This document shows positions 12,710 to 54,815 of a DNA stretch of 64,000 nt, in pieces; positions within the stretch are counted from its first letter, which is position 1; the number at the start of each line of letters is the position of its first letter. The position numbers and the translations under genes are program-made. A model generated the notes under the pieces. It was not told where the DNA came from. It did no database searches and saw only the letters and a list, made by a program, of their open reading frames with translations. Source of the DNA: Bacteroidetes bacterium UKL13-3 (GTDB taxonomy: Bacteria; Bacteroidota; Bacteroidia; UKL13-3); assembly GCA_001602415.1 (NCBI GenBank), contig CP012155.1, forward strand, positions 2,874,824 to 2,938,823. Reading direction: 5' to 3'.

Positions 12710-13294
12710 TTAGGTGAAATATTTTCCTAAGGAATATACACGGATTATGGAAGAGGTCTATTCCTTTATACTTTCTTTCTTTCTTTCCATTTTGAGTCCT
12801 CGTTCAATAAGAAAATCATTAATGTCAATACACCTTACACCGTGTTTTTCGGCAACTTTAGGAATTTTATTATGTTTTGTTTTACTTTCATTTGTAATTA
12901 AAACATGATTATGAATTATGCAATGCCCAATCAAATAGGGATCTGCCTCTTCCTTACCCTCAGCTTGCTTTTTAGCATCAAAAAAGCCAGACTAATATTC
13001 TTCATTAATGATTGGAATTGTAGCATTCATCGTAGCAGAATCAACTTCAATAACTAAGTGCTTTCTCCATTTTTTAACCCACTTCTTCAAGAAGTCTTGC
13101 TTCCCCTCATAACTATTAATTTCATCTTCAACGAAATTAATAGTTTTAAAATGACCTTGTGAAATCAAATCTTCTACCTCTTCCCAAATGGCTTTAAAAA
13201 CCGGATTATCATAATTAAATGTGAAATCCAAAATTATTAGAGCACTTGTGTCAATTACGTATATGCAATTACCTTGGTTAAAATCTAATTGCAT
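12710..13294 (-). pseudogene. DUF4411 (PIN-like) family gene interrupted by an in-frame TAG at 12992-12994
   Basis: N-terminal 100 aa (YVIDTSALI...NATIPIINEEY) ends at TAG. The same frame continues directly as SGFFDAKKQAEGKEEADPYLIGHCIIHNHVLITNESKTKHNKIPKVAEKHGVRCIDINDFLIERGLKM. Both halves match the DUF4411 pattern (N-terminal PIN-like D-T motif, C-terminal ADPFLIA...VVT.E motif). The frame after the stop was checked codon by codon on the sequence. Confidence 0.6.
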
Positions 13295-13297
13295 CTT

Positions 13298-14446
13298 TTA
13301 ACTATTTAATAATTGCCTCGTTTTTGAAATATAAGAGAGCTTTACTCCCAAAAAATCTGAAAGATCTTTTAAATCAATTCTATTCTGATCAAATGCTGAG
13401 AACGCCAATGATATATAAGATCTTCCTTTTTCCTTAATTGTTTCTTTAGCAATATTTCTACCTTCTGGTTTCTTGGCTCTTCCAAATTGAGGTTTATTCC
13501 AAGCTAGATGTCTGTCCTTATAATACGATGCTGTGGTAAGGCCATTTTCAAGTAAACTTCTTAAAACTGCTAATGGTCCTACATGAAAATAATTGCCGAT
13601 CTCAATTAAATCCTTTTTAGCCCAATTCATTTGCCCCTTTGACTTTTGATCGACCACATTACCCATTTCTAAAAGTTCAGTTGACGGAATTAACATTTCT
13701 GAAGCAAAAGCATTACACCACTTTTCAATTTGTTGGCTTGAGTTCTCCGAAAGATCACATAACCCACCATCGTTTAAAAGAATATGCCCTAACTCATGAA
13801 ATAGCGTAAAAATCTTTGCAGTTGTGGGTTCTCCTCCTCTTTTGATACCAATAATTGGAATACTTTCATCCACTAATGCAAATCCTCTCAAGTTGTCCTG
13901 TGTCATCGTCAATTGAAAGACGGCAACACCCAATGACTCGACTTTATCTATATAACCCTCTAAAGCTAAATTAAGGTTTTCAATTTGTCTAACCTCCATG
14001 ATTCCCCACTGATTTCTATATCTGTTTGCTATCGACCTAGGATCATCATTTATTGATGCTTTATATTGAAACTTGTTAATTTGAATTCCGGCATCTTGCT
14101 TTAATTCAATTAGTGAAACGACAAGTGCTCTAGCTTTCCGAATTGCCATAATTGTCTTTTCGTGGAAATTGCCTAATTCATTAGAATTAACCGTTCTTCG
14201 ATCTAGAGGTAATGGCTTCTCTTTAGGAGGCGCATTGAGTAATAAGGTAGCCATCGTCCTTTTGTAAATCTTCGAAAACTCTTTCAACTCTTCTAATGTT
14301 GGCTGCTTATCGCCTTCTTCCAATTGAATTAGCCGTTTTGCCGATATACCTGTTTTGTCTGATACAAAAGCCCGAGACAATACAATGCTCTCCCTCGCCC
14401 AACGAAGAACCTGATGATTGACTAAAATTATAGCATTCTCTGACAT
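13298..14446 (-). CDS. XRE-type HTH fused to ImmA/IrrE family Zn metallopeptidase (COG2856-like)
   Basis: 382 aa. N-terminal HTH (KTGISAKRLIQLEEGDKQPTLEELKEFSKIY). HEXXH motif (FTLFHELGHILLNDGG) in the central region. Lies 3 bp upstream of the DUF4411 gene on the same strand. Confidence 0.75.
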   Translation of the reverse strand: MSENAIILVNHQVLRWARESIVLSRAFVSDKTGISAKRLIQLEEGDKQPTLEELKEFSKIYKRTMATLLLNAPPKEKPLPLDRRTVNSNELGNFHEKTIMAIRKARALVVSLIELKQDAGIQINKFQYKASINDDPRSIANRYRNQWGIMEVRQIENLNLALEGYIDKVESLGVAVFQLTMTQDNLRGFALVDESIPIIGIKRGGEPTTAKIFTLFHELGHILLNDGGLCDLSENSSQQIEKWCNAFASEMLIPSTELLEMGNVVDQKSKGQMNWAKKDLIEIGNYFHVGPLAVLRSLLENGLTTASYYKDRHLAWNKPQFGRAKKPEGRNIAKETIKEKGRSYISLAFSAFDQNRIDLKDLSDFLGVKLSYISKTRQLLNS

Positions 14447-14523
14447 TGAAATATCTTATCTCCTGTAAAAATAATTTATTTTAATTCTGTTACAATATAA
14501 CATTATATAATTCAGTAGAAGCA

Positions 14524-14562
14524 CCAACAAAAACGCCCCGATCCAACAGGAACGAGGCGTTT
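14524..14562 (-). terminator. intrinsic terminator downstream of tsf
   Basis: On the minus transcript: AAACGCCUCG-loop-CGGGGCGUUU stem followed by UUUUGUUGG. It sits 24 nt after the tsf stop and before the ImmA/DUF4411 module. Confidence 0.55.
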
Positions 14563-14585
14563 CATATTCGGTATCTCTATTCAGA

Positions 14586-15419
14586 TTAACCTAAAGCAAC
14601 ACGTTTGAATGCTTTTACAGATAAACCTTTTTCAACACCATCTAACATTTGAGCGATGGTTTTTGAACTATCTTTCACAAATTCCTGATTTAACAAAGTA
14701 GACTCTTTGTAGAATTTACCCAATTTACCTTCAGCAATTTTTTCAATCATGTTTTCAGGCTTTCCTTCGGCACGCACTTGCTCTTTTGCTACTTCAATTT
14801 CGCGGGCAACAACTGATGCATCTACATCGCCTTTATCTAATGCTAATGGATTTAATGCAGCAATTTGCATGGCTACATCTTTACCAGCAACAAAATTAGC
14901 TTCGTTAGCAGCAGAAGTTAATGAAACCAATACACCTAAACGGTTACCCGCGTGGATATAAGGAACCAAGTTATCGCCTTCCAAAATTTCGTAGCGAGTT
15001 ACGTCAACTTTTTCACCAATTTTTCCAACTTGTTCCATTAAACGTTCAGCAAGTGTTACGCTTCCCATTGTTAATGCCTTTAAGGCATCAAGATCAGCCG
15101 GTTTGTTAGCCAAGGCTAAATCAGCAACCTCATTCGCAAATGCAACGAAATCATCGTTTTTAGCAACGAAATCTGTTTCACAAGCCAACAAGATTACTAC
15201 TCCTGTTTTTTTATCAGCAGAAGTTTTAGCAATAACTGCACCTTCTTTAGCGTCACGGTCTGCACGAGCAGCCGAAATTTTTTGTCCTTTTTTACGTAAG
15301 TAATCAACTGCAGCATCAAAATCACCGTTGGTTTCGGTTAATGCTTTTTTGCAATCCATCATACCTGCACCGGTTAATTGGCGCAATTTGTTAACGTCAG
15401 CAGCACTAATAGTACTCAT
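14586..15419 (-). CDS. tsf: translation elongation factor Ts
   Basis: MSTISAADVNKLRQLTGAGMMDCKKALTETNGDFDAAVDYLRKKG is the canonical EF-Ts UBA-like N-terminus. The start is the internal ATG at 15419. Confidence 0.9.
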   Translation of the reverse strand: MSTISAADVNKLRQLTGAGMMDCKKALTETNGDFDAAVDYLRKKGQKISAARADRDAKEGAVIAKTSADKKTGVVILLACETDFVAKNDDFVAFANEVADLALANKPADLDALKALTMGSVTLAERLMEQVGKIGEKVDVTRYEILEGDNLVPYIHAGNRLGVLVSLTSAANEANFVAGKDVAMQIAALNPLALDKGDVDASVVAREIEVAKEQVRAEGKPENMIEKIAEGKLGKFYKESTLLNQEFVKDSSKTIAQMLDGVEKGLSVKAFKRVALG

Positions 15420-15491
15420 AGTATGTTCTTTCTTTAAAGTTTTTGTTAAAAAATAATTCAAAAAAAATCGGCCTAAGCCGATTTTTCAATG

Positions 15492-16238
15492 TTATGCTTC
15501 GGTTGTTTCGGCAGCGGGTGCTGCTTCTTTATCTTCAGCTTCTTTATCTTTTTTGCGTTCAGTTAATCCTTCTGCAATGGCATTGGTCATAACTTTTGCA
15601 ATCAAAGCAATTGATTTTGCTGCATCATCATTTGCAGGAATCGGGAAATCAACAACAGTTGGATCTGAGTTGGTATCAACGATAGCAAAGGTAGGGATGT
15701 TTAATTTTTGTGCTTCAGCAATTGCAATGTGTTCGCGTTTGATATCTACAATAAACAACGCAGCAGGAAGACGGTTCAAATCAGCAATACCACCAAATAA
15801 TCTGGTTAATTTTGCTTTTTCACGCTCCAACATCAAACGCTCTTTTTTGTTGATATTTTGGTAAGTACCATCTACAGCCATTTTATCAATGGTTTGCATT
15901 TTTTTGATAGACTTACGTACAGTAGTAAAGTTGGTTAACATACCACCCAACCAGCGCTCCGTTACAAAAGGCATGTTTACACGTGCAGCTTCTGTTTCGA
16001 TGATTTCTTTCGCTTGTTTTTTGGTAGCTACGAACAATACCTTACGACCCGACTTAACGATGTTTTTCAACGCTTCTGCCGACTCTTCCAACTTTACAGC
16101 TGTTTTATTAAGGTCGATCAAGTGGATTCCGTTTTTCTCCATAAAAATATACGGAGCCATTTTTGGATTCCATTTGCGGGTAAGATGTCCAAAGTGAACA
16201 CCAGCCTCTAACAATTCTTCTTGAGTTATTTTTGACAT
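15492..16238 (-). CDS. rpsB: 30S ribosomal protein S2
   Basis: [32 protein letters not shown]. Confidence 0.95.
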
Positions 16239-16265
16239 GATTTTGAATTTCTGTAAAGTAAATGA

Positions 16266-16655
16266 TTAACGTTTTACGAATTGGAAACGTTTACGAGCTT
16301 TCTTCTGACCTGGTTTCTTACGCTCAACCATACGAGGGTCACGCGTCATCATCGATGCAGCTTTAAGTGTTGGTTTAAGTTCTGCGTTGTGCATAACCAA
16401 TGCTCTGGCAATTGCAAGTTTAAGAGCTTCAGCTTGACCCGATACTCCTCCACCATCAATATTTGCTTTCACATCAAACTGACCAAGCATATTGGTTAAT
16501 TCGAACGGACGGTTAATTTCATTTTGTAACATCAATGTTGGGAAATACACTTTCATGTCTTTTCCGTTTACGGTGAAGTTTCCAGATCCTCCTACTGATA
16601 GATATACTCTGGCAACAGATGTTTTTCTTCTTCCTAATGCGTTGATAATTTCCAT
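16266..16655 (-). CDS. rpsI: 30S ribosomal protein S9
   Basis: 129 aa ending KKPGQKKARKRFQFVKR. Confidence 0.95.
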   Translation of the reverse strand: MEIINALGRRKTSVARVYLSVGGSGNFTVNGKDMKVYFPTLMLQNEINRPFELTNMLGQFDVKANIDGGGVSGQAEALKLAIARALVMHNAELKPTLKAASMMTRDPRMVERKKPGQKKARKRFQFVKR

Positions 16656-16659
16656 TTCG

Positions 16660-17103
16660 TTAGAATTTTAATGGTTTAGGTTGTTGTGCTGCATGCGGAT
16701 GCTCTGTTCCTGCGTACACGTAAAGGTTTCTGAAAATTTCAGCTCCCAATTTGTTGTTAGGCAACATACCTTCAATAGCATGCTCAACAGAATAGGTAGG
16801 CTTTTTAGCCATCATATCCTTAGCCGTAACAAAACGTTGTCCACCCGGGTGACCTGAGTAAAATACATACTCTTTGTCAGCCAGTTTGTTTCCTGTGAAA
16901 CGAATCTTCTCAGCATTGATGATGATTACGTTGTCGCCACAGTCCACATTGGGAGTAAAACTCGGCTTGTGTTTACCTCTTAAAATGTTCGCTACCTTAG
17001 AAGCGAAACGGCCTAAGGTTTGACCCTCGGCATCCAATACAAACCACTCTTTATTAACAGTAGCTTTATTGGCAGATTTTGTTTTGTAACTTATATTGTC
17101 CAC
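16660..17103 (-). CDS. rplM: 50S ribosomal protein L13
   Basis: 147 aa, [28 protein letters not shown]. Confidence 0.95.
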
Positions 17104-17140
17104 GATTGAAATGGTTTAGTCCCTTTATGATAAGGGGTGG

Positions 17141-17176
17141 CAAAAGTAGGGCATGATTTGCTAATTCACAACAAAA
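17141..17176 (-). promoter_or_regulatory. candidate Bacteroidetes sigma-A promoter for the rplM-rpsI-rpsB-tsf operon
   Basis: Minus strand reads TACTTTTG (matching the -7 consensus TAnnTTTG) at 17148-17141. A TTTG sits ~23 nt upstream at 17175-17172. That spacing is slightly longer than typical. Confidence 0.3.
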
Positions 17177-17265
17177 TGTGCGAAAAAAATTGAGCAACTT
17201 GGGGTACTAGTGAGAAAAGCCCGATTTTATTGGGTTTCTTCGGGTTACAAGGCAAAAATAATTTC

Positions 17266-17742
17266 TTAAATTGACGTTTTTAGGAACTTTTTCCAACGGT
17301 AAGTGCCTTTTGTATCATACACATATATTAGATAAGGACCGGGAGCCATGTACGTAATGTCGATTTGCAGATACTCGCGCGGTAGAGCTGTTATTTCGCG
17401 CTGGAACCATAATTTGCCATAAAAATCAACAATAAACAATCTGCTAAAATTGGGTGTTGCCTGAACAAGGGTAAAATAGATATAATAGGGGTCGTAAGTA
17501 GGAATAATATCAAACTCAAAACCTGAGCAGGAGCCATCCGTAATTGTTCTAACACCATTCCTCAAACGTGCATCGCAGTCGTTTCTATATGTATTGTTAT
17601 CACAACCACAAACAGGATAAAACTCATTGTTGGGGCATGGGAAACCAGGACTGATAGACAATGAATCAATACACCCAAAAATTTGCGCATTTATATTTAA
17701 GACCATAAAAAATAATATGAGTAAGGTAAGGGTATATTTCAC
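17266..17742 (-). CDS. secreted Kazal-type protease-inhibitor domain protein with T9SS C-terminal sorting domain
   Basis: Signal peptide. Cys pattern CPNNEFYPVCGCDNNTYRNDCDARLRNG (Kazal-like). C-terminal IDITYMAPGPYLIYVYDTKGTYRWKKFLK resembles a type-A T9SS CTD. Confidence 0.55.
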   Translation of the reverse strand: MKYTLTLLILFFMVLNINAQIFGCIDSLSISPGFPCPNNEFYPVCGCDNNTYRNDCDARLRNGVRTITDGSCSGFEFDIIPTYDPYYIYFTLVQATPNFSRLFIVDFYGKLWFQREITALPREYLQIDITYMAPGPYLIYVYDTKGTYRWKKFLKTSI

Positions 17743-18164
17743 TTTTTAACGAAATTGAGTGGTTTGTACCAAGCGAATTTACCAAACTTATAGTAAGAAA
17801 CCTCTACTAACTTTCCGGTTGTGTCAAATTTTTGCCAATCCCCTTCCCATCTGTAATAAGCTGTATCGAGTGATTCGAAATAATAGGCATATCCTTTCAG
17901 GTGTAAACGCCCTTGATAATCGTAATAAGTGGTTTTGATGCGTTTATCTTTTTTATACCGTTCGTCCAAATACAGCGTACCACGTGAAGTGTAATATTTC
18001 CAATGCCCAACCTGATGGTGATTTTTATAGCGGCCCTTCCACATCAGATGCTTTTTATCATCATCATAATAAATCTTCCTCCTGCCTTGCCTGAATTTAT
18101 GCTCATCAAGCTTGTTTAAGTTACAAGAGCCACAAAAGAATATAAGTAGGAATAATCGAAACAT
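17739..18164 (-). CDS. MORN-repeat variant (YwqK-like) lipoprotein
   Basis: Lipoprotein-type signal (LLIFFCGSC). Repeated G.W..YY..G.L units typical of the MORN variant/YwqK family. 4-bp overlap with the downstream Kazal gene. Confidence 0.5.
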   Translation of the reverse strand: MFRLFLLIFFCGSCNLNKLDEHKFRQGRRKIYYDDDKKHLMWKGRYKNHHQVGHWKYYTSRGTLYLDERYKKDKRIKTTYYDYQGRLHLKGYAYYFESLDTAYYRWEGDWQKFDTTGKLVEVSYYKFGKFAWYKPLNFVKK

Positions 18165-18242
18165 TAATTGTCGAACGTTTTACACGGGAAATTGTTATCG
18201 AGAACCCTCTATTTTACCGCTCAATAACCATTGTTTTACTTT

Positions 18243-19313
18243 TAACCTGAGTTCGGTTTAAGCAGCTAATGTCAATTGTTGTTCAAGTTGCTTGATAAGC
18301 TGAGGGTTTGTTTCCTCAATATCTTTTTTGATGGAAGGTTTTTTAGGAAAGAAAGAATACGCAGCAATTGCACTCATAATATTAAGAAGAAAACCGCTGA
18401 TAGAGCGATGTCTTGTATGTTCAACTTGACAAATGTTTTTTAACTCATCATTTACGGTTTCAATCACGGACCGTTTCCTTAAAAGAAGTTTCTCTTCATT
18501 GCTCAATGCTTTAGATTTCATGTTTCTTCTTACAGCTGTAATGAGTTGTATACCGTTGCCAAAAAGCAGATCACTCAATGCTTTTGAGATATATCCCTTA
18601 TCTCCAAATAGTTTTCCGAAAAGGTCTTTAGTCATATTGGTAATTGTTTTAGCATCTCTATCATCCACATTTCCTTTGGTTAGAAAGAAAGATAATATCT
18701 CACCTTTGTCGTTTATAATCAGGTGAAGTTTAAAGCCAAAGAACCATCCCATTGATGATTTACCAACATCTGCAAAGCCTTTAAATGTTTTATTACGCTT
18801 TATCCTTTTGTTGTGACAAACACGCAGTACAGTATAATCAATAAAGCTAATGCCAGTGCACTCGCCTTTGCAACAATGATGGAGAAACAACATGAATGCA
18901 ATAGCACAACGATGACTCAATTCAACAAACCTGTTATAGGAAACCAATCCGGGAAAATCTTCTCTTAAATGAACAGACACATAGTCCACATAAAAATGCT
19001 TGAAATTCCTGAATTGACCACCATGAAACGCAATCAGGAGTGTGATAATTTCAGAGTCACACATTCCGGCTTTTCTATTTCTTGTTTTAACGTTTGATGG
19101 TGCGGGTAATTGGTGTTTTGAATACAAAATTTCAAATTCATTGCAGAAATCATCAACTTTTACAAAAGTTTCTGTAATTTTATCTTGTAGCATTGGTGTG
19201 TTTTTTATGTTTTTTTGGACTACAAAATTAACACTTCCAATGCTACTAATTATTTGATTACCAAATAATTATAAACAAAATAATCAACACTTTCTTATCC
19301 CGAACTCAGGTTA
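18243..19313 (-). mobile_element. IS982-family insertion sequence (~1.07 kb) with 13-14 bp terminal inverted repeats
   Basis: Terminal IRs AACCTGAGTTCGG (18244-18256) and CCGAACTCAGGTT (19300-19312) flank a single transposase ORF. The size is typical of IS982. Confidence 0.7.
18258..19193 (-). CDS. IS982 family DDE transposase
   Basis: 311 aa. N-terminus ...KVDDFCNEF... and C-terminal DKGYIS...LITAVRRNMK pattern characteristic of IS982 transposases. Confidence 0.85.
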   Translation of the reverse strand: MLQDKITETFVKVDDFCNEFEILYSKHQLPAPSNVKTRNRKAGMCDSEIITLLIAFHGGQFRNFKHFYVDYVSVHLREDFPGLVSYNRFVELSHRCAIAFMLFLHHCCKGECTGISFIDYTVLRVCHNKRIKRNKTFKGFADVGKSSMGWFFGFKLHLIINDKGEILSFFLTKGNVDDRDAKTITNMTKDLFGKLFGDKGYISKALSDLLFGNGIQLITAVRRNMKSKALSNEEKLLLRKRSVIETVNDELKNICQVEHTRHRSISGFLLNIMSAIAAYSFFPKKPSIKKDIEETNPQLIKQLEQQLTLAA

Positions 19314-19605
19314 CTATTATTTTCAAGTAATTGCGTTGGAAGGAAATACGCCCTATGTTTTGCTGGTATGCACAAGAATGACCGAGCACAACACAAAAGA
19401 AATAAGGAAGAGAAGCCCTAATCAGAGTTTGAGGATTTAAAAGAGAAAACCCTTTCGACAGATCCGGTAGAATTTTTATCCTTGAGGTAAGATGGACAAG
19501 TCACGCACGACACGTGTGCCAAAAAGGAACATTACCGGCTGAGTTCAGCATCTGAGGAAAGACCTCTTAAAGTTTTACCCTTGAGATAAACGGTGGGAAT
19601 GCTAA

Positions 19606-19633
19606 TTCGCACTAACGTGACGTTAGCGCGAAC
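19606..19633. repeat. palindromic repeat TTCGCACTAACG(T/A)GACGTTAGCGCGAAC, copy 1 of 2
   Basis: A near-identical 28-mer recurs at 39482-39509 with 1 mismatch. It forms an imperfect hairpin (CACTAACG/CGTTAG-G). Confidence 0.7.
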
Positions 19634-19686
19634 AGAGCTAAATTTAATCTATTCTCGATGCACCCATCATCCGCTACTCGAACCGA

Positions 19687-20244: not shown

Positions 20245-20311
20245 TTAACAGTTTTGTAATCTTCGGTAATTGTAATATGCAAATGAGAGACTTGTTTGTG
20301 TAAAGAGATTG

Positions 20312-20391
20312 AAGTTACAAACTTCAAACAGCGCAAGCGCATCTGCGAAGTTTAAAACTTTGCAGATACAAGACTGGCAAGTTTGTAACTT
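20312..20391. terminator. nested inverted-repeat structure between the amidohydrolase and NUDIX genes
   Basis: Outer 13-bp inverted repeat AAGTTACAAACTT (20312-20324) / AAGTTTGTAACTT (20379-20391). It encloses an inner 12-bp-stem hairpin TCTGCGAAGTTT-aa-AAACTTTGCAGA (20342-20366, 1 mismatch). Confidence 0.4.
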
Positions 20392-39095: not shown

Positions 39096-39314
39096 TCACG
39101 TCTCGAGAATCATTGTCCCATCAGTATCGTTAGTCGAATCTCGATGATGATCTAAGTACTTTTGTACCATATCATCGGTTATGTTACCTGTACTCCATGC
39201 TCCGTAACCTGAGGCCCAAAAGTGACGACCCCAGTAACGTTTCTCTATCCAAGGATACTCCTGTTGTAACTTACGTGATGTATGACCTTTCAAGCGCTTT
39301 ACCAAATCAATCAC
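39096..39314 (-). pseudogene. IS200/IS605-family Y1 transposase (TnpA) C-terminal fragment
   Basis: 72 aa: VKRLKGHTSRKLQQEYPWIEKRYWGRHFWASGYGAWSTGNITDDMVQKYLDHH matches the C-terminal half of IS200 TnpA, including the catalytic-Tyr region. The N-terminal HuH-containing half is absent from every frame. Confidence 0.7.
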
Positions 39315-39338: not shown

Positions 39339-39371
39339 TCACGCTAACATCTTGTTAGTGTGAATTCAGAA
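39339..39371. repeat. 33-bp hairpin-containing repeat TCACGCTAACATCTTGTTAGTGTG(A/T)ATTCAGAA, copy 1
   Basis: Second direct copy at 39561-39593 with 1 mismatch. Contains the hairpin CACGCTAACA-tctt-TGTTAGTGTG. Confidence 0.7.
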
Positions 39372-39481: not shown

Positions 39482-39509
39482 TTCGCACTAACGAGACGTT
39501 AGCGCGAAC
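39482..39509. repeat. palindromic repeat TTCGCACTAACGAGACGTTAGCGCGAAC, copy 2 of the 19606 element
   Basis: 27/28 identical to 19606-19633. Confidence 0.7.
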
Positions 39510-39560: not shown

Positions 39561-39593
39561 TCACGCTAACATCTTGTTAGTGTGTATTCAGAA
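39561..39593. repeat. 33-bp hairpin-containing repeat, copy 2
   Basis: Direct repeat of 39339-39371, 222 bp downstream. Confidence 0.7.
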
Positions 39594-47034: not shown

Positions 47035-48864
47035 TTATTCTTTTTTGAGAAGCACTTTACTTGAAAATACGCTACCTGTAGAATATGTAACTGTAACAAT
47101 ATAGTATCCCTCTGAAGGAAGCATCTCCAAGTTAAGTTTGGTATCGAAATTATCCACTACTCTTTCCAACAACACTCTACCCTGCATGGAAGCAATTCTC
47201 ACATTTATGGGCGCATTCTTCATGTCAGGATTCACTTGAATATATTCACCAGCCGGATTAGGATAAACCAAAGGGCTCAAATTCTTTGTCATATCATATT
47301 GATTCGAAATACCAACAGGAGAGCCATTCGTATTGGTTATAAAATATAATCTGCCATATGGAGAGCTAAAATCACGAATATTGCGAGTTGCAACGATATC
47401 CGGTCTACCGTCCCTGTTGAAATCTGCAATGGTCAACCCAAATGGATTGGTCATCACAACAGGCATTCGCTCTGAAGAATAATCCGCTTCTGATATATAC
47501 CTGGTGTCCGTGGCTGTATTCCAATTAATCAGTAAAGCACTGGTCCAATTGGTTGTGATGATATCGTTCTTCCCATCACCGTTTAAATCCGCAATCTTAA
47601 TCTGATAATATTGAGTAAACTGATCATTCACCTGTGACGGTTTAATAAACAATCGCTCGAATCCCGTTGTATCCATGATATTCAATTGCTGTTTATTAAG
47701 TAGAATCAACACAAATGAATCTTGCATCGTTACCGCCAAATCATTTTTTCCATCATCATTTAAGTCGCCTGAAGTTACGTAATATGGAGATTTAGGGGTA
47801 ACAATAAAAACAGGCTGACTAAAACTAATTGCTCCATTAGGTTGAGAAGTATTTTTAAATAGTGCAATCGTTTTGTTGAATCCTTGTGTGACAAGAATAT
47901 CATCTTTCCCATCCCCTGTAAGGTCAACAACACAAATACCAAAAGGGCCGTCATTACTTGCCACTCCGGTAGCTAATTCTATAGTATCGGTAAAAGCAGT
48001 TTCGGTAATAGTCTTAGACGATAGATTGTTTTTGATCAAGATTATTTTAGATATACCAGGAGAAGAATTAGCCGATACAACGATATCGGGTAAACCATCT
48101 AAATTTAAATCTGATGTAACAACCTCCGCTAGTTGATTTGCGTTTAGGGTTAAACCTACAGCCTGACCGAATGAGGTCGAATCCAGTCCTCCTGCTGTAG
48201 CTTTGTTTTCGAATAGATATATTCTTTTTCCCATTTTTGACGTACACAAAATATCCTGCTTGCCATCTCCATTAATATCACTTACATAAACTGCATAAGC
48301 TGGAGTATCCATTCTGAGCTTGATACCGGGCTCAAAAGAATTATCATCCAATACACCGCCTATATATGTCAGAGGCATCTTGTTTCGCATCACCGTTAAT
48401 TGTTTCTCTGCATCACTTGTTACGATAATATCCATCCTTCCATCATTATCAATATCTCCATTACAAACGTACTGGGGTGTTCTGGGGATAAAGGCCTTTT
48501 GCACTTCAACGCGAGACAATAACATCTGATCTGGCAATGGTCCGTAGAATGTGGTCGAAAGAAATTGTTTTGAAACGGCTTGCTTGCCACCCGTAAGTAC
48601 ACTCACTCAACCATAGGTTGCTCCGATGGGAACAGTAAATTCAAGCATTTTTTCATTACCGGAAATAGTTTTTGCTTCCGCTCCCTCAAAAAATACTCTG
48701 TTCTGCTGAAAAGCAGAATTAAACCCATTACCATAAATCGTAACAGAAGTTAAGGGTTGGGCATGATAGGTTGAAAGGCTGTCTATCTGAATGCTTTGTG
48801 CAGAAGAATTAGATGCTATTAACGTAAAACCGAAAAGAAATAACAATACGGTTGACTTTTTCAT
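47035..48864 (-). pseudogene. FG-GAP/VCBS-repeat T9SS cargo gene interrupted by an in-frame TGA at 48607-48609
   Basis: An 85-aa ORF with signal peptide (48610-48864) and a 523-aa GTG-initiated ORF (47035-48606) share one frame, separated by a single TGA. The sequence reads through coherently (...TVPIGATYG*VSVLTGGKQAVS, IPT/TIG-like). The body has FG-GAP repeats (DINGDGK.D) and a C-terminal T9SS CTD (YPNPAGEYIQV...YYIVTVTYSTGSVFSSKVLLKKE). Confidence 0.65.
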
Positions 48865-48924
48865 TGGACTGAAGTAATATTGTTCATCCGATATTATAGA
48901 ACTCTATGAAGATATCAAAATTAA

Positions 48925-50055
48925 TCCCCCCTTGTCGTGACAAATTTATTTTTGTTCTTTAGCCAAACATCGCTGATTGTTTGTCGTGCTCAAGATTCGA
49001 ACATTTCTCCTAACGGCCAAAACATTGAACTTCTTTACAGCAGAACAAGATGTATTGAATGTACGTTTAATGGGTGCATATCTGTGAGGCAAGATGTAAG
49101 TCGTGTTTCTGACCTTAATGGATCCAGAATTGTAAATGGTCCTATCGAGATATCTGTTTACAAATTCCCTTGCGCTTGTAATCAAGGACCTGTGATCCCA
49201 GAAATTAAAGACGAAAGAAGATTTCCACCATACCCTTAGGCAAGATTAAATCAAGTTGTGGTAAATGGAACCGCTGCACCAATCAGAGGATTAACAAGGG
49301 ATAGAATAAACATTCCTTCAAGCACAACAACCTTCTATAATGTATTTAAAGCTGATAGAAGTGATGATGAGTTATTCGATATGCCGGAGGCTGACTTCAT
49401 CCGGCTTCTAGATAAAGATTGGCCGAGTAAATATCCTAAGTTATCCTATAGACAAAATGCAAATGGAGACTTAGTTCCTTTTTATGAAACTGTACCTCAA
49501 ATTGCTTGTTGACTCGCCCCTTCTGGTTTCCTTACAGATGGAGGTAACTCTGAACAATTCAACGAATTTTTGAATAAATTACGCGATATGCGTGCCAATG
49601 GAACCAGCACTGACGAATTAGACGCCTGGCTTTTGAAAATTGAAAATGTTTTGAATGGATTACGATCTGGACAACAGGTCATTGTCAGAAATGGAACAAT
49701 AGATATTGGAAAGGGGAATAGGCACTTATACTATGGGGACTGTCGCTGGGACTTCGAATTTTGGTTTAACGGAGGAGATTATTTAACTCTTAAAGAGTTA
49801 CTACCTGTTTCAATCGAAGAAAGTACTCAACCAACAGACTATTCCCAAACTGATTTAGTTTGGAGAAACACTTACCCAATTACCCATATCACTGCAACTA
49901 GACTTAATAATGGTGAAATGATTGCTGATGAAGATTATACTCTGGAAAAAGATATTAAAATAAACATCGCCTCTCTGAATTCAGGAGATATTCTGGCAGT
50001 AACAGCAGTATTATTCAATGGAGAAATCGTCAGTAAAAAGATTTTTATTCCTTAA
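48925..50055 (+). pseudogene. degraded ORF (three same-frame pieces separated by TAG 49237-49239 and TGA 49510-49512) with T9SS-CTD-like C-terminus
   Basis: Frame 1 is open for ~377 codons with two internal stops and no ATG at its head. The pieces initiate only with GTG/GTG/TTG. The last piece ends INIASLNSGDILAVTAVLFNGEIVSKKIFIP, which resembles a T9SS CTD. Confidence 0.35.
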
Positions 50056-50097
50056 TTATCAAATTGTAAAAATCTTCTTAAATCAAGCAAAGAGAGG

Positions 50098-50643
50098 TTA
50101 ATCAACTTTGCCCGCTCCGGCATAATACGTTTTATAGTACTTTTCGCTCAGGTGGTTAATCATCAAGCCTCTTGAACTGCTTACGTGTGCAAACCAGTTA
50201 TCTTTTAAGTAAATGCCAACGTGCGATATTTTGCTGGATTTAATTTTGAAAAAAATTAAGTCGCCCTCTTTCAGCTCCATTGAATCAATCCGTTTGGTTT
50301 GGTTAAACATTTCCACTGAATTACGCGGTAATATTCTTTGGTATACTTCCTCGTAGACCATACGTACAAAACACGAACAATCGGTTCCGCGTTTATCACA
50401 TCCTCCGTCTTTATGAGGCACACCCAGCCATTCCCCCACAAAGGAATAGAGCTTAAAATTATCCTTTCGATCTACTTCCAGGTTTAACTTTTCGCTGAGG
50501 AATCTGTATTCTTTTTGCTTATGTGTAGGCTCTTTTGCTTTGGAAACAGTCGTTCCTTTTTTGCTTTTACACGCAACTAGGAACAAAACAACAGCCATCA
50601 GCCAGATACTTTTCGAGCGAATCATGAAGCAACAATACTTCAT
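50098..50643 (-). CDS. NlpC/P60 (C40) family peptidase lipoprotein
   Basis: Lipobox LVAC. Catalytic Cys context DCSCFV and His context ISHVGIY, typical of NlpC/P60. Confidence 0.75.
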   Translation of the reverse strand: MKYCCFMIRSKSIWLMAVVLFLVACKSKKGTTVSKAKEPTHKQKEYRFLSEKLNLEVDRKDNFKLYSFVGEWLGVPHKDGGCDKRGTDCSCFVRMVYEEVYQRILPRNSVEMFNQTKRIDSMELKEGDLIFFKIKSSKISHVGIYLKDNWFAHVSSSRGLMINHLSEKYYKTYYAGAGKVD

Positions 50644-50697
50644 TTGTTGAAACAGAAAATAAACAAGTACACATTTAAGGTGTACAAAAAGAAGACA

Positions 50698-51189
50698 TTA
50701 AACAACCGGTTTAAATCCTTCAAACGCTTGCAAACAATTATTGCAATAGTGCATGCTTCGGCACAAGGTTGGCCCAAATGGACTTTTCATTTCAGTATTT
50801 TTACTGCCGCAAAACGGGCACTCCACATGTTCCAGTAATTCCTGAGTTACCTCGCCTTCGTGTTTTACGGGTGGCGCTAAACCATGCTTTTTCAAACACA
50901 TCAATCCACGATCGGTAAGTTTATTGCTGTCCCAGGGTTTTTCAAAATTGGTGACCACCTCAACTGTTTGAATCCCGATTTCTTTTAACCTATCGGATAC
51001 CATTCCTTCCATCATTTTAATGGCCGGACAACCCGTAAAGGTTGGTGTCATCTCCACATACACGCTGCTCTCGCCACGCACTTCCACTTTAGTGATGATA
51101 CCCATATCAACCATACTCAAGGTAGGTATCTCCGGATCTTTCACCACTTCGAGGGCATTCCATATATCTTGTTCGGTTGGCATATTCAT
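50698..51189 (-). CDS. MIP18/DUF59-domain protein with C-terminal Cys4 zinc-ribbon (PaaD-like Fe-S assembly/epoxidase subunit-like)
   Basis: N-terminal DUF59 pattern (ALEVVKDPEIPTLSMVDMGII...). C-terminal CPFCGS...CNNC. Confidence 0.65.
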   Translation of the reverse strand: MNMPTEQDIWNALEVVKDPEIPTLSMVDMGIITKVEVRGESSVYVEMTPTFTGCPAIKMMEGMVSDRLKEIGIQTVEVVTNFEKPWDSNKLTDRGLMCLKKHGLAPPVKHEGEVTQELLEHVECPFCGSKNTEMKSPFGPTLCRSMHYCNNCLQAFEGFKPVV

Positions 51190-51508
51190 TAAACGAAAAT
51201 ACGAAGAGTTGGTTTACAAAAAAGATGCTATTTAAGAGTTGCTGCTCTGTTAACCTTAAATTTTGTAAGCAGCCTAACGTATTTTTTTGTTAAATCATAC
51301 TCATAACCACAAAAAAGGCTACAGAAATATTCGAGGCCACTGAAAAAGCATCATTTTGATGAAAACTTAATTTAGAGCGATTAGGTAAAATGTAAATTTT
51401 ACTTATTCGCTTTTTTGTAATTTTACTTTTGAGATTTACAGGATGTTTTATGGTTCTTGTTGCACCCTAAAATGCATTTTTAGACCTTTTTTCGCGTAAC
51501 TTTAGAGT

Positions 51509-52879
51509 TTACTCTGTTAATTTAATAATTCTTTTTAAGTTGACTGCAAAAATTGCCAGTGCACCCTGCATTTGCATATTACTAATGCCATAGGATATTG
51601 CTCTATCGTATCCGTGTATGTTTTTTAACTCACTATTTTTTGCTTCAATTTTATAACGATGCTTTGATTTTTCTTTATAATAATCGGTTTCTTGAAAGAC
51701 TGTTTGTTCTTGATGTAGGTCTGATTTAATTGTTAACGAATAGGTTTTTGTTTTTGCTCCTTCTTTATAACAACCCTCTTTTAAAGGGCATGTTTTACAT
51801 TTGTCTGTATCAAAGTAGTATGTTACTGCTTGGTTTTTTCCAATATTTTTTGTGCCTTGACGAGCCTTTTTTAATGCCATATGACCAGCAGGGCAAACAA
51901 ACATATCTGCATCTTTATTGTAATCAAATTTATCTTCATCCTTTCTTGTGCCTTGTGTGATTGAGGGATTTAGCCTTGCTACTATTTTAATATTTTGCTC
52001 TGTTGTAATTTTAAGATTTTCTTTTCCTGAATAGGCGGTATCGCCTATTATGGTATCCACATCAATTCCATTTTCTTGACTCATTTGTAAAAGTTTTGTT
52101 AACTCTGGCCCATCTCCTTTTTCACCCGATGTTACTACTGCTGCTGTAATAATGCGCTCTTCGGTCATGGCTATATGTGTTTTGTATCCAAAGAATGAGC
52201 TATCAGCTGATTTGTGCCCAATTCTTGCATCAGTATCTTTTGATAGGATGAAATTTTCTTGCGTATCTTCTACCGTTTCTTTTAGTAAATTGAGTTTTTC
52301 TTTTACACCAGGTATTGAACTAATAGTTGGTTCATTTTCTATTCGTTGCTCTAACTCTTTGCAATATGCTAACTCCTTTTCCAAATCATTATCAATGTTC
52401 TTTTGTGGCATATTTTCTTTCCATTCCTCATCAAACAAATACACCGCTTTCCTGAGTAACTTAGAGCGTTCACGTAATACTTCTATTGCTGAAAATGGAT
52501 TTGATCTTGATAGCGTATGTGTGGCATCTACTATAATTGACTTTGAACGAATGATGCCTTTTTCAACTGCTATACTGACTGTTTTGTTTATTAATAAATC
52601 TAACAAGTCGGTGTCTTTTAAACATAGTTTTCTAAACTTGGTCAATGAACTAGAATTTATTACTTCCTCTTCTGGTGTCATTTCTAAAAAGTATTTAAAT
52701 GACATATCGTATCGTGAACGCTCAACTACATCAGATATTGTATAAATTGTTTTCAAAAGTAAATACTTGAACATGCGAACTGGACTTTCCGCCATTCGGC
52801 CATTATTCATGCAATATTTATTTACTAGCTCCTCGTATACAAAGGAAAAGTCTACTAATTCATTAATTTTTCTAAGCAA
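51509..52879 (-). mobile_element. IS1182/IS5-like DDE transposase gene, 5'-truncated (N-terminal ~30 codons replaced by a stop)
   Basis: DUF772/InsH-N motif VRMFKYLLLKTIYTISDVVERSRYDMSFKYFLEM. The frame upstream reads *DLIVPKHNLLRKINELVD, matching the canonical IS1182 N-terminus (DDLIPEDH..R.VNEVID) but cut by TAA. Only a TTG start is available. Confidence 0.7.
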
Positions 52880-52984
52880 ATTGTGCTTCGGAACAATTAA
52901 ATCTTATAACGAAGAATGGTTACTAATCTGAATTTTATGCTGTTGTAATAACATTTGGCTGCCGTTAAATTTCTTAATAAAGAA

Positions 52985-53030
52985 ACAAAAAAAGGGGCAA
53001 AAAACATTGCCGTTTTTTACCCCTTTTACT
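52985..53030. terminator. bidirectional intrinsic terminator
   Basis: AAAAAAAGGGG-22 nt loop-CCCCTTTT, with T/A runs on both sides. Sits 80 bp 3' of the 139-aa minus-strand gene. Confidence 0.5.
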
Positions 53031-53109
53031 AACATTTGTTAATCAAATGACTTTTTCAGTGGCCTCCTGATATGGCCGGGCATTTTTTTATAGTCTAAGA
53101 TGTTTTCTC

Positions 53110-53529
53110 TTATGCTTCTTCGGCTGTTTCTTCCTCTTCTTCTGGCACAATTCCTTCCATCAAATTGCGGATTTCTTGCAGTTCTTCGCGGTTGTATTTG
53201 TTGCTGTAATCAGCAAACAAATCCATTAAATAATCCAAGTTTGCTTTTCCGTCATCATCTTGCAAATACAAGAATGTATAGCCACCAGCATTTTCTTCAA
53301 TGTTCTCGTAGGCCAAACGAATCATGCGCACATAACCCGGCTCATTCAAATTTGCTTTTACATATTCACGCAACTCTTTTAGCTGTTCTACAACTTTAGC
53401 ACCAACACCTTCAGTAGCCAACGTCTTTTTAATTTTATCAATTATCGGTTTCATATATTTATATCTGTCGGCTGCGAAACTACTGTTTTTGTCGATTAAT
53501 GAAAATACATTTGTTTGAAAATTCATCAT
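53110..53529 (-). CDS. hypothetical protein with acidic C-terminal tail
   Basis: 139 aa, no recognised motif. C-terminus EEEEETAEEA. Its start region overlaps the divergent DUF486 gene, so the true start is probably the internal Met (MKPIID). Confidence 0.4.
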   Translation of the reverse strand: MMNFQTNVFSLIDKNSSFAADRYKYMKPIIDKIKKTLATEGVGAKVVEQLKELREYVKANLNEPGYVRMIRLAYENIEENAGGYTFLYLQDDDGKANLDYLMDLFADYSNKYNREELQEIRNLMEGIVPEEEEETAEEA

Positions 53530-53910
53530 TTTACCATGGCTAAAGGAATCTATACCATTGTTTTACTGCTTGTTTCCAACCTTTTCATGACTTTTGCGTG
53601 GTACGGACACCTGCAGTTTCAAAAGATATATTGGCTCAAAAACACAGGATTAATTGGCAATATCGCCATCAGTTGGGGTATTGCTTTGTTCGAATATGTA
53701 TTTCAGGTTCCGGCAAATCGTATTGGGCATATTGAGCATGGCGGACCGTTTAGTATGTTTGAATTGAAAACCATTCAGGAAGCCATCTCCATTTCGGTAT
53801 TTGTGCTGGTAAACATCTATGTGTTTAAGGAAGGAAACCTGCAATGGAACCACATTCTAGGCTTTGCACTTATTTTGCTAGCCGTATTTGTTCTTTTTAA
53901 GAAGTGGTAA
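53515..53910 (+). CDS. DMT-superfamily small membrane protein (DUF486-like)
   Basis: 131 aa, 4 predicted TM helices, EamA-like half-transporter pattern. Start possibly the internal Met at 53536. Confidence 0.5.
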   Translation: MKIHHFTMAKGIYTIVLLLVSNLFMTFAWYGHLQFQKIYWLKNTGLIGNIAISWGIALFEYVFQVPANRIGHIEHGGPFSMFELKTIQEAISISVFVLVNIYVFKEGNLQWNHILGFALILLAVFVLFKKW

Positions 53911-53932
53911 AATTTTATAGCTTTGTGTACGC

Positions 53933-54235
53933 ATGGAAAAGTTAGTGAAACCTATATTCAATAAGCGCATCTTCTGGGATGTGACTATTGAAACATTGGA
54001 TATTGATGCCAAGGCTAACTTTGTTATTGAACGGGTATTTGAGCGTGGCGATGTGGATGATATCAGGCAGTGTAGAAGGTATTACGGGGATGCTAAAGTG
54101 AGAGAAGCATTACTCAATGCAAAATATTTACCCCTGCATACAATTTATTTGGCAAGTGCTGTTGTTGACGAACCCTTAGAAGCATTCAGATGTTACAAAC
54201 TCAGACAGTTGAACCCGGGACTTTATCCCTACTAA
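53933..54235 (+). CDS. small conserved protein upstream-overlapping an AbiEii-type nucleotidyltransferase (candidate antitoxin-like partner)
   Basis: 100 aa: ...RIFWDVTIETLDIDAKANFVIERVFERGDVDDIRQCRRYYG.... Recognised as a recurring ~100-aa partner ORF of AbiEii/DUF1814 genes in Bacteroidetes. The family name is not certain. 46-nt overlap with the next gene. Confidence 0.4.
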   Translation: MEKLVKPIFNKRIFWDVTIETLDIDAKANFVIERVFERGDVDDIRQCRRYYGDAKVREALLNAKYLPLHTIYLASAVVDEPLEAFRCYKLRQLNPGLYPY

Positions 54236-54815
54236 AAACATTAATGTACGTTCCTGTTCTAAAACAATCGTATCTGGTTGGAGGAACGGCACTTTCATTG
54301 TTATATGGACATCGTATTTCCATTGATCTTGATTTGTTTTATCATGATGATTTGGACAAAACAGCCATTATTCAAAGCCTCACAAACTTGTTCAAGATCG
54401 ATTTTGACTATCGAGGAAATCCCAATTCTTTGGGTATCTTTTGCAATATACGTAATGAAAAGTTGACATTATAAAGTACCCTCATCCAATCATCCATCCA
54501 ACCCAACTTATTGATGGGATAAGAATGTATCATACCGATGATATTGTGGCTATGAAAATGAATGCACTATTAGGCAGAGCAAAAAAGAAGGATTTTTGGG
54601 ACGTAGCCGAATTATTGAAGCATTATTCTATTGCTAAAATGGTGGAACTTCATAAGAAAAAGTATCCAAGCCAGATGCTCCTTATTTCAGTGCCGCAAGC
54701 TTTGATTTATTTCAATGAAGCTGAAGAAAGCGAAGATCCCATCAGCCTTAACGGACAAACTTGGGAAAGCGTTAAGAAAACAATTCGGGCTGCAGTGAGG
54801 GATTATTTAAGTTGA
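54190..54815 (+). pseudogene. nucleotidyltransferase AbiEii/AbiGii toxin family (DUF1814) gene split by a frameshift near 54455-54465
   Basis: Piece 1 in frame 1 carries the NTase motif LVGGTALSLLYGHRISIDLDLF and ends ...NIRNEKLTL*. Frame 3 is open from 54459 as KVDIIKYPHPIIHPTQLIDGIRMYHTDDIVAMKMNALLGRAKKKDFWDVAELL, the conserved AbiEii C-terminal pattern. A 1-nt indel at the AAAA run 54457-54460 would fuse them into a ~208-aa protein. Confidence 0.65.

What the first reader, a model, noticed from the sequence alone, without database searches (positions are those of the whole stretch)
12710..54815. Pattern: toxin-like or effector genes carry single inactivating lesions while partner or regulator genes are intact
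Inference across separate loci. The DUF4411 PIN-like gene has a TAG. The AbiEii NTase has a frameshift. An FG-GAP cargo gene has a TGA, and a second cargo gene has TAG plus TGA. Both the IS200 and the IS1182 transposase genes are truncated. All housekeeping genes in the window are intact. The skew toward accessory or toxic functions argues for biological pseudogenisation (relaxed selection or toxin silencing) rather than random sequencing error. Homopolymer-associated assembly error remains possible for the AbiEii case.
Basis: inference. Interest (0 to 1): 0.55.

Follow-up and report, generated by a model that had tools for sequence, protein, structure and literature searches.

The report
Real pseudogenes in dispensable accessory genes
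The broken genes are genuine: the same stop codons and frameshift recur in many independent metagenome assemblies of this uncultured freshwater Bacteroidota species, often alongside intact versions, which is the ordinary decay of dispensable accessory genes and not a new phenomenon.

Summary
All five point lesions sit at the stated coordinates: DUF4411 TAG, FG-GAP TGA, second cargo gene TAG and TGA, and the AbiEii frameshift. The IS200 gene is a 72-codon 3' remnant.

They are not sequencing errors. The same alleles recur in contigs from over 15 independent samples that are about 99.8% identical to the window.
- **Still polymorphic:** CAG/TAG in DUF4411, CGA/TGA in FG-GAP, TGG/TAG in cargo2.
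- **Fixed in every contig seen:** the cargo2 TGA and the AbiEii 1-bp deletion.

Population variants in the four broken genes run 22 non-synonymous or disruptive to 3 synonymous. Flanking core genes run 16:55 (Fisher P = 9e-9). This indicates relaxed selection.

- Lesions are not always single. cargo2 also has a signal-peptide frameshift, and DUF4411 a 4-bp indel.
- The IS1182 element is full length and carries an early TAA rather than a deletion.
- An intact, recently mobile IS982 was missed.
- FG-GAP and cargo2 are secreted proteins, not shown toxins or effectors.
- "Toxin broken, partner intact" rests on two gene pairs (chance about 0.2).

Verdict: real, ordinary and well explained. Low novelty.

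The parts
12758..13294 (-). DUF4411 (PIN-like) putative toxin, pseudogene. It carries Q101* (CAG>TAG at 12992-12994) plus a 4-bp insertion at 12771-12774 that changes the last residues.
   Evidence: An intact 174-aa allele occurs in L002, L005, L006 and L009. The TAG allele occurs in 12 other contigs. L001, L008 and L084 add a +T frameshift at 12890.
13298..14446 (-). Intact XRE-HTH + M78 (ImmA/IrrE, HELGH motif) Zn-peptidase partner. It is a RosmerTA RmrA-like antitoxin/regulator.
   Evidence: Pfam. PADLOC RmrA E=3e-20. It is 382 aa in all contigs. The unbiased sample shows only E3D and one synonymous variant.
18246..19310 (-). IS982 element with an intact 311-aa transposase (18258-19193). 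The insertion is polymorphic in the population.
   Evidence: profile 2-241/243. L084 lacks it and has 1.2 kb of other genes in its place.
39096..39314 (-). IS200/IS605 TnpA remnant. Only the C-terminal 72 codons remain, and the HUH half is deleted.
   Evidence: NCBIfam profile 73-125/126. Sequence.
47035..48864 (-). T9SS-secreted FG-GAP/TIG protein gene with R86* (CGA>TGA at 48607-48609). The remaining 523-aa ORF would lack the signal peptide.
   Evidence: An intact 609-aa allele occurs in 7 of 11 other contigs. The gene is absent between recJ and NlpC in sister species.
48906..50055 (+). Secreted Cys-rich protein gene of unknown function ('cargo2'), a multiply hit pseudogene. Its lesions are a C6 frameshift at 48926-48931, TGG>TAG at 49237-49239, and TGA at 49510-49512.
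   Evidence: Single-ORF homologues of 368 and 361 aa exist. The TGA is fixed in all 11 contigs. Other haplotypes carry Y34* (49038) or a 1-bp deletion (49613).
51333..53066 (-). Full-length IS1182-family element with 16-bp perfect terminal inverted repeats. Its transposase (ATG at 52952-52954, ending at 51509) is interrupted by a TAA at 52904-52906 (codon 17).
   Evidence: Short-read contigs break within k-1 bases of both ends, implying a multi-copy repeat.
53933..54235 (+). Intact DUF6922 partner gene. It overlaps the AbiEii start by 46 nt.
   Evidence: The same pair with the same overlap is intact in a sister species.
54190..54815 (+). AbiEii-family nucleotidyltransferase toxin gene, inactivated by a 1-bp deletion (A5>A4) at 54458-54461.
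   Evidence: It is split in all 11 distinct contigs.

Best explanation
The window comes from an uncultured freshwater Bacteroidota species whose population is nearly clonal, at about 99.8% identity between samples. Six dispensable genes in it are genuine pseudogenes or loss-of-function alleles:
- two toxin genes of toxin-antitoxin / abortive-infection type modules (DUF4411 and AbiEii);
- two secreted proteins in a species-specific islet (FG-GAP and cargo2);
- two transposase genes (IS200 and IS1182).

They arose by ordinary point mutation, homopolymer slippage and deletion. They persist because selection on these genes is relaxed.

Shown:
- The lesions are real and heritable.
- Three are still polymorphic against intact alleles, and two are fixed.
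- Broken genes keep collecting further disruptive hits.
- Flanking core genes are under strong purifying selection.

Inferred:
- In the two toxin-antitoxin-type pairs the toxin can be lost harmlessly, while loss of the antitoxin alone would be harmful. Decay therefore starts at the toxin and leaves an orphan partner.
- The truncated FG-GAP product, lacking its signal peptide, cannot be exported.
For: Independent observation of the lesions:
- Exact-protein look-ups of neighbouring genes returned contigs from ENA, JGI, Logan and NCBI samples that are 99.4-100% identical to the window over each stretch compared, apart from a divergent block beyond 54.8 kb.
- The window haplotype is reproduced base for base in Logan SRR3178174, Logan SRR6487939 and MAG GCA_003525585.1, lesions included.

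Allele states:
- 12994: TAG versus CAG, with 4 intact contigs.
- 48609: TGA versus CGA, with 7 intact contigs.
- 49238: TAG versus TGG, with 9 intact contigs.
- The cargo2 TGA and the AbiEii A4 run are present in every contig.

Ancestral intactness:
- cargo2 homologues of 368 and 361 aa are single ORFs, one of them in the syntenic recJ-X-NlpC-PaaD position.
- Repaired AbiEii is 208 aa, like more than 100 homologues.
- A sister species keeps an intact DUF6922 + AbiEii pair.

Continuing decay:
- cargo2 carries five different segregating disruptive mutations on top of the fixed TGA.
- Some TAG alleles of DUF4411 add a frameshift.

Selection contrast:
- Lesioned genes 22 N: 3 S, core genes 16: 55, Fisher P = 9e-9. 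Excluding the recombinant contig L005, P = 5e-6.
- The synonymous share in lesioned genes fits neutrality (P = 0.13-0.27).

Dispensability:
- Sister species have recJ directly next to NlpC with no FG-GAP or cargo2.
- The DUF4411 pair sits inside the otherwise universal tsf-pyrH adjacency (established knowledge).

Literature:
- Transposases are the class most enriched among bacterial pseudogenes (10.1101/2023.05.17.541134).
- DUF4411 with HTH-DUF955 is a predicted toxin-antitoxin architecture (PMC5499597).
- Deletion of the Zn-peptidase antitoxin rmrA could not be obtained, possibly due to toxicity (10.1101/2022.05.11.491447).
Against: - No raw reads were examined, and metagenome contigs are consensus sequences of mixed strains.
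- Only 64 kb of the genome is visible, so a genome-wide core-versus-accessory pseudogene density is not available.
- The exact-protein look-ups exclude non-synonymous variants of the query genes (HTH-M78, DUF6922, recJ, rpsB, hyp324). This inflates apparent conservation of those genes.
- In the unbiased subsets each partner shows 1 missense and 1 synonymous variant, so purifying selection on the partners is not demonstrated.
- FG-GAP shows 5 missense and 0 synonymous differences even among intact alleles. This could reflect diversifying selection rather than relaxed selection.
- Toxicity of the two toxins and neutralisation by the partners were not tested.
Confidence: 0.85

Rival explanations
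1. The lesions are sequencing or assembly artefacts of this one assembly. Examples would be homopolymer miscalls or low-coverage consensus errors.
For: Many purported bacterial pseudogenes are assembly errors (PMC11017572). Two lesions lie in homopolymer runs: A4 at 54458-54461 and C6 at 48926-48931.
Against: Every lesion is seen in independent assemblies made with different assemblers (megahit k141 and k87, Logan, JGI, an NCBI MAG) and from different samples. Three of the five point lesions are base substitutions. Alleles form nested haplotypes consistent with descent.
Confidence: 0.02
2. Inactivation is adaptive rather than neutral. Toxin genes are silenced because they are costly. Surface or secreted proteins are lost because they serve as phage receptors or targets. 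The loss-of-function alleles then rise or are balanced by fluctuating phage pressure.
For: - The DUF4411 TAG is the majority allele (12 versus 4 contigs). The FG-GAP TGA is at intermediate frequency (4 versus 7). Both are polymorphic in a population with only about 0.2% divergence.
- Nonsense changes make up 4 of 19 non-synonymous SNPs, against an expected 5-6% (nominal P = 0.013-0.03).
- The neighbouring DUF6175 cluster shows deep allelic divergence typical of diversifying selection.
Against: - Three of the four nonsense sites were the reason these genes were examined. Without them the count is 1 of 16, as expected under neutrality.
- Repeated hits in cargo2 come after a fixed first hit, so they are neutral decay.
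- The AbiEii frameshift is fixed, not balanced.
- There are no phage or phenotype data.
Confidence: 0.15
3. The interrupted genes are still expressed as full-length proteins by recoding. This would be -1 ribosomal slippage on A-AAG in AbiEii, or stop-codon read-through, keeping toxin dosage low.
For: A -1 slip of tRNA-Lys on A AAG at 54458-54462 would read N-E-K-V-D and restore the conserved K-V-D motif. The frameshift is conserved in all 11 contigs.
Against: - There is no canonical X XXY YYZ heptamer, because the P-site codon GAA cannot re-pair.
- Conservation is trivially explained by the near-clonality of the population.
- More than 100 homologues, including the sister species, encode an uninterrupted 208-aa ORF.
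- AbiEii population variants are 5 missense to 3 synonymous.
- The stops are TAG, TGA and TAA at codons that are Gln, Arg and Trp in sister alleles, with no sign of a reassigned code in the other approximately 50 genes.
Confidence: 0.03
4. The specific motif 'toxin hit, partner spared' is a coincidence of two cases, not a rule in this genome.
For: - There are only two toxin-antitoxin-type modules. By gene length the chance that both hits fall in the toxin is 0.32 x 0.67 = 0.21.
- In unbiased samples the toxins have 8 variants in 1163 bp and the partners 4 in 1452 bp. The difference is not significant.
Against: Established toxin-antitoxin logic predicts this order of loss. The partners stay full length in every haplotype, while both toxins carry disruptive changes.
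Confidence: 0.3

Closest known systems
Bacterial pseudogene formation concentrated in accessory and mobile genes (pangenome 'neutral reference' pseudogenes; transposase enrichment)
   Same: The lesions are nonsense, frameshift and truncation changes in transposases and in species-specific or horizontally mobile genes. Neighbouring core genes are intact and constrained. Lesioned genes show a neutral N:S ratio.
   Different: Nothing essential differs. The extra here is direct population evidence that intact and broken alleles co-occur at about 99.8% identity.
RosmerTA and the HTH-DUF955(M78)-PIN three-component toxin-antitoxin systems (Millman et al. 2022; Matelska et al. 2017)
   Same: An upstream fused XRE-HTH + Zn-peptidase gene (PADLOC RmrA hits) is followed directly by a small DUF4411 PIN-like gene. 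This is exactly the architecture described for DUF4411.1.
   Different: DUF4411 matches no PADLOC RmrT model. The toxin is a pseudogene in the window and in most strains. No defence or toxicity test exists.
AbiE type IV toxin-antitoxin / abortive infection system (AbiEi-AbiEii)
   Same: The toxin has the AbiEii nucleotidyltransferase domain, with the conserved GG...DLD motif. It overlaps a small upstream partner gene.
   Different: The partner is a 100-aa DUF6922 protein, not a winged-HTH AbiEi. The toxin is frameshifted in every strain of this species.
Type IX secretion system cargo proteins
   Same: The FG-GAP gene has a signal peptide, TIG and FG-GAP repeats, and a Por_Secre_tail C-terminal domain.
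   Different: It is interrupted at codon 86 in the window. No toxin or effector activity is implied by its domains. cargo2 has no detectable T9SS C-terminal domain.

Membership tests
Pseudogene (biological, not artefactual) | The lesion interrupts an ORF that is uninterrupted in homologues | tested here: met
   - DUF4411: intact 174-aa alleles exist.
- FG-GAP: intact 609-aa alleles exist.
- cargo2: 368-aa and 361-aa homologues exist.
- AbiEii: more than 100 homologues of 208 aa exist.
Pseudogene (biological, not artefactual) | The lesion is reproducible in independent sequence data | tested here: met
   Identical lesions occur in contigs from ENA, JGI, Logan and NCBI samples. Raw reads were not examined.
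Pseudogene (biological, not artefactual) | Relaxed selective constraint relative to functional neighbours | tested here: met
   N:S is 22:3 in lesioned genes and 16:55 in core genes, Fisher P = 9e-9. The synonymous share is compatible with neutrality.
RosmerTA / HTH-M78 + PIN-like toxin-antitoxin system | Antitoxin with an XRE HTH and an M78 Zn-peptidase (HExxH) | tested here: met
   Pfam HTH_3 and Peptidase_M78. PADLOC RmrA E=3e-20. HELGH is visible in the translation.
RosmerTA / HTH-M78 + PIN-like toxin-antitoxin system | Adjacent toxin belonging to a recognised RmrT family | tested here: not met
   DUF4411 has no PADLOC hit. The architecture matches DUF4411.1 of PMC5499597 instead.
RosmerTA / HTH-M78 + PIN-like toxin-antitoxin system | Toxin toxic, neutralised by the antitoxin, and protective against phage | not testable with these tools
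   Needs expression and plaque assays.
AbiE (type IV toxin-antitoxin) | AbiEii nucleotidyltransferase domain | tested here: met
   PF08843 E=1.4e-17. 13 PADLOC AbiEii models hit. The GG and DLD motifs are invariant in alignment A2.
AbiE (type IV toxin-antitoxin) | AbiEi-type winged-HTH antitoxin partner | tested here: not met
   The partner hits only DUF6922. It has no PADLOC or NCBIfam hit.
AbiE (type IV toxin-antitoxin) | Uninterrupted toxin ORF | tested here: not met
   A 1-bp deletion is present in the window and in all 11 contigs.
T9SS cargo | N-terminal signal peptide plus Por_Secre_tail C-terminal domain | tested here: met
   For FG-GAP, PF18962 matches at 533-604 and the N-terminus is hydrophobic. 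For cargo2 no C-terminal domain was found, so the feature is not met for that gene.
IS1182 family element | Full-length transposase and terminal inverted repeats | tested here: inconclusive
   The profile is matched at 23-488/488 with 351 bits, above the 270-bit cut-off. The 16-bp inverted repeats are perfect. An in-frame TAA at codon 17 separates the ATG from the rest. Whether the TTG-initiated 456-aa product is active is unknown.
IS200/IS605 family element | TnpA with HUH motif and catalytic Tyr | tested here: not met
   Only profile positions 73-125/126 remain. The N-terminal half is absent.

The most novel reading that the evidence does not exclude
The intact/broken polymorphisms in a defence toxin (DUF4411) and a T9SS surface protein (FG-GAP) may not be drifting. 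They could be maintained by fluctuating phage pressure, as balanced loss-of-function polymorphism in a nearly clonal lake population. The retained orphan antitoxins (HTH-M78, DUF6922) would then serve as anti-addiction or regulatory genes. The adjacent deep allelic divergence in the DUF6175 cluster would belong to the same phage-interaction hotspot.
Probability: 0.1. Interest if true: 0.45.

Novelty: already known. Interest (0 to 1): 0.15.

Why it matters
It matters little beyond annotation quality. These ORFs should be annotated as pseudogenes, not 'fixed' as errors, and the AbiE-like and RosmerTA-like modules of this genome should not be counted as active defence systems.

The population data give a clean small example. 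Accessory genes decay while still segregating as intact alleles in a wild, uncultured freshwater bacterium, and independent metagenome assemblies can stand in for read pile-ups when separating real pseudogenes from assembly artefacts.

Tried and rejected
- **Metagenome scans for a repaired A5 allele of AbiEii.** A scan of metagenome contigs found none. The positive control with the A4 allele also found none, although the pattern is correct. That collection does not hold these contigs, so the scans are uninformative.
- **IS1182 ORF look-ups.** Exact-protein look-ups with the TTG start and the first ATG start were not on record. Other copies of the element could not be compared.
- **AlphaFold2 on the intact cargo2 orthologue.** A 5-row alignment gave mean pLDDT 41.8 and pTM 0.28. 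This is too poor for a fold search, so cargo2's function stays unknown.
- **tRNA and Rfam scans of the window.** Neither found anything, so there is no suppressor tRNA or recoding element.
- **Excess of nonsense mutations as evidence for selected inactivation.** The nominal P of 0.013-0.03 was rejected because three of the four sites were the ascertainment criterion.
- **'Partners are more conserved than toxins.'** The binomial P of 1e-4 was rejected. Those contigs were retrieved by exact match to the partner proteins, and unbiased sets show no significant difference.
- **IS1182-mediated loss of paaABC next to the orphan paaD.** This was rejected because the closest sister species also lack paaABC there.
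- **Hypothesis that cargo2's TGA at 49510 is a natural stop between two genes.** This was rejected by single-ORF homologues.

Full report
**What is in the sequence**

- **DUF4411 (12758-13294, minus strand).** It has an in-frame TAG at 12992-12994, with the family profile matched end to end across the stop.
- **FG-GAP (47035-48864, minus strand).** This gene carries a signal peptide, a TIG domain, FG-GAP repeats and a T9SS C-terminal sorting domain. It has an in-frame TGA at 48607-48609 inside the TIG domain.
- **Second cargo gene ('cargo2').** It has a TAG at 49237-49239 and a TGA at 49510-49512 in a single frame.
- **AbiEii (54190-54815).** It changes frame at the A4 run 54458-54461.
- **IS200.** What remains is a 72-codon remnant (39096-39314) matching only positions 73-125 of the 126-position family profile.

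**Corrections to the observation**

- **IS1182 is not deleted.** The element spans 51333-53066 with perfect 16-bp terminal inverted repeats. Its transposase matches profile positions 23-488 of 488, above the curated cut-off. An in-frame TAA at 52904-52906 separates the ATG (52952-52954) and the first 16 codons from the rest.
- **cargo2 has a third lesion.** A C6 run at 48926-48931, where other strains have C5, puts the ATG at 48906 and a proper signal peptide out of frame.
- **DUF4411 has a second change.** A 4-bp insertion sits near its stop.
- **An intact IS982 was overlooked.** Its transposase is at 18258-19193, within an element spanning 18246-19310.

The remaining genes (about 46) are uninterrupted. 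They include frr, pyrH, tsf, rpsB, rpsI, rplM, mutL, ruvA, sprA, rpoN, asnS, tsaB and recJ, plus a TolC-like gene that runs off the window end. The evidence is ORF continuity, domain coverage and identical product lengths in independent contigs.

**Are the lesions real?**

Exact-protein look-ups of intact neighbour genes returned contigs from more than 15 independent samples across ENA, JGI, Logan and NCBI. Over the stretches compared they are 99.4-100% identical to the window, apart from a divergent block beyond 54.8 kb. The window's haplotype, lesions included, is reproduced exactly in Logan assemblies of SRR3178174 and SRR6487939 and in MAG GCA_003525585.1.

Allele states:

| Site | Broken allele | Intact allele or status |
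|---|---|---|
| 12994 (DUF4411) | TAG in 12 other contigs | CAG (Gln) in 4; intact product is 174 aa |
| 48609 (FG-GAP) | TGA in 4 | CGA (Arg) in 7; intact product is 609 aa |
| 49238 (cargo2) | TAG in 2 | TGG (Trp) in 9 |
| 49510-49512 (cargo2) | TGA in all 11 | fixed |
| 54458-54461 (AbiEii) | A4 in all 11 distinct contigs | fixed |

Artefactual pseudogenes are a known problem (PMC11017572), so this check mattered.

**Were the genes once intact?**

- **cargo2.** It has two homologues, of 368 and 361 aa, that cover it end to end as single ORFs. One lies in the syntenic recJ-X-NlpC-PaaD position. Trp or Tyr aligns to the TAG, and Gly or Asp aligns to the TGA.
- **AbiEii.** Restoring one A yields 208 aa, the exact length of more than 100 homologues. 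It also restores the conserved K-V-D motif, in which K and D are invariant.
- **Sister species.** One with RecJ 87% identical has an intact DUF6922 + AbiEii pair with the same 46-nt overlap, in a partly syntenic neighbourhood.

**Selection**

I annotated all population variants across about 27 kb of shared sequence.

- The four lesioned genes carry 22 non-synonymous or disruptive variants and 3 synonymous ones.
- Flanking core genes carry 16 and 55. Examples are rpoN at 0:9 and asnS at 0:3.
- Fisher P = 9e-9 overall. Excluding the recombinant contig L005, P = 5e-6.
- The synonymous share in the lesioned genes fits the neutral expectation.

Broken genes also keep decaying. cargo2 carries five different segregating disruptive mutations on top of its fixed TGA: the C-run frameshift, Y34*, W>TAG, and a 1-bp deletion in L028. 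Some TAG alleles of DUF4411 have gained a further frameshift and two missense changes.

The genes are dispensable in evolutionary terms. In the closest sister species recJ abuts NlpC with no FG-GAP or cargo2 between them. The DUF4411 pair interrupts the conserved tsf-pyrH adjacency.

**Caveats I had to impose on my own analysis**

- **Look-up bias.** The look-up tool retrieves only contigs that encode the query protein exactly. The apparent invariance of HTH-M78, DUF6922 and recJ in those sets is therefore built in.
- **Partners in unbiased sets.** In sets ascertained through rpsB or hyp324, each partner shows one missense and one synonymous variant. The partners are not significantly less variable than the toxins.
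- **Nonsense excess.** The nominal excess of nonsense changes is 4 of 19 against an expected 5-6%. It vanishes when the three sites that prompted the analysis are removed.

The data therefore show relaxed constraint. They do not show selection for inactivation.

**What the modules are**

- **HTH-M78 + DUF4411.** This matches the published architecture for DUF4411.1 (PMC5499597). The upstream gene hits PADLOC RmrA models. RmrA is the Zn-peptidase antitoxin of RosmerTA, and its deletion could not be obtained, possibly owing to toxicity (10.1101/2022.05.11.491447). DUF4411 itself hits no RmrT model.
- **DUF6922 + AbiEii.** This is an AbiE-like pair with a non-canonical partner.
- **FG-GAP.** It is a T9SS surface or secreted protein, not a toxin.
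- **cargo2.** It is a secreted cysteine-rich protein of unknown function. Structure prediction was too poor to use.

**Mechanism**

Ordinary mutations hit genes that the population can do without. These were three G:C>A:T transitions, two transversions, two homopolymer slips and one deletion.

In the two toxin-antitoxin-type pairs the toxin can be lost without harm, whereas loss of the antitoxin alone would be harmful. A broken toxin with an intact partner is therefore the expected first stage of decay. With two pairs, however, the asymmetry is not statistically demonstrable, since chance is about 0.21.

Enrichment of transposase pseudogenes is a documented general pattern (10.1101/2023.05.17.541134). 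This genome also has an intact IS982 whose insertion is polymorphic.

**Verdict**

The labels 'toxin/effector', 'single lesion' and 'toxin silencing' are overstated.

The phenomenon is well known, so interest is low. The least ordinary reading still open is phage-driven balanced loss-of-function polymorphism at the DUF4411 and FG-GAP loci. I put that at about 10%.

Noticed in passing
window 56000-58345 (DUF6175, hyp170 and hyp421 genes): The window haplotype differs from most other contigs by 12-23% per 250-bp bin here, against about 0.2% elsewhere. Most differences fall at third codon positions. This looks like replacement by a deeply divergent allele, through recombination or diversifying selection, in a cluster of unknown, probably surface-associated proteins.
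   Followed up: partly
window 54824 (just after the AbiEii stop); L013, L016, L017, L093, L098, L100: Some strains carry an insertion of about 1.3 kb at this point. It encodes an MpPF26-domain protein and a 97-aa protein. The AbiE-like pair therefore borders a variable island.
   Followed up: no
window 18246-19310; L084 6791-7993; L002 and L005 1-200: The IS982 insertion site is a three-way structural polymorphism. The window has IS982. L084 has 1.2 kb with a paralogue of the 141-aa gene plus two small ORFs. L002 and L005 have the 3' end of a large Por_Secre_tail (T9SS) gene instead.
   Followed up: partly
window 19610-19628, 39342-39360, 39486-39504, 39564-39582: There are four copies of a REP-like palindrome, CACTAAC-N5-GTTAGYG, against 0.03 expected by chance. 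Three are clustered directly upstream of the IS200/TnpA remnant, which suggests a decayed REP/RAYT-type arrangement.
   Followed up: partly
window 11540-11687 (frr), contig L005: One contig carries 27 substitutions in 150 bp, almost all synonymous, within otherwise near-identical sequence. It looks like a short homologous-recombination tract imported from a diverged relative.
   Followed up: no
window 50698-53110: paaD (1,2-phenylacetyl-CoA epoxidase subunit D) stands alone without paaABC. Synteny with the closest sister species breaks exactly at the IS1182 element. Sister species continue with a membrane-fusion protein and FtsX-type permease genes, and they also lack paaABC.
   Followed up: partly
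window 16428 (rpsI codon 76): The window haplotype has Glu (GAA) where 8 of 9 other contigs have Asp. This is a minority missense allele in ribosomal protein S9.
   Followed up: no
Metagenome-contig collection: The collection returned no match even for a 45-nt pattern that is present in JGI-derived loci L011 and L014. Negative scans of it say nothing about this organism.
   Followed up: yes
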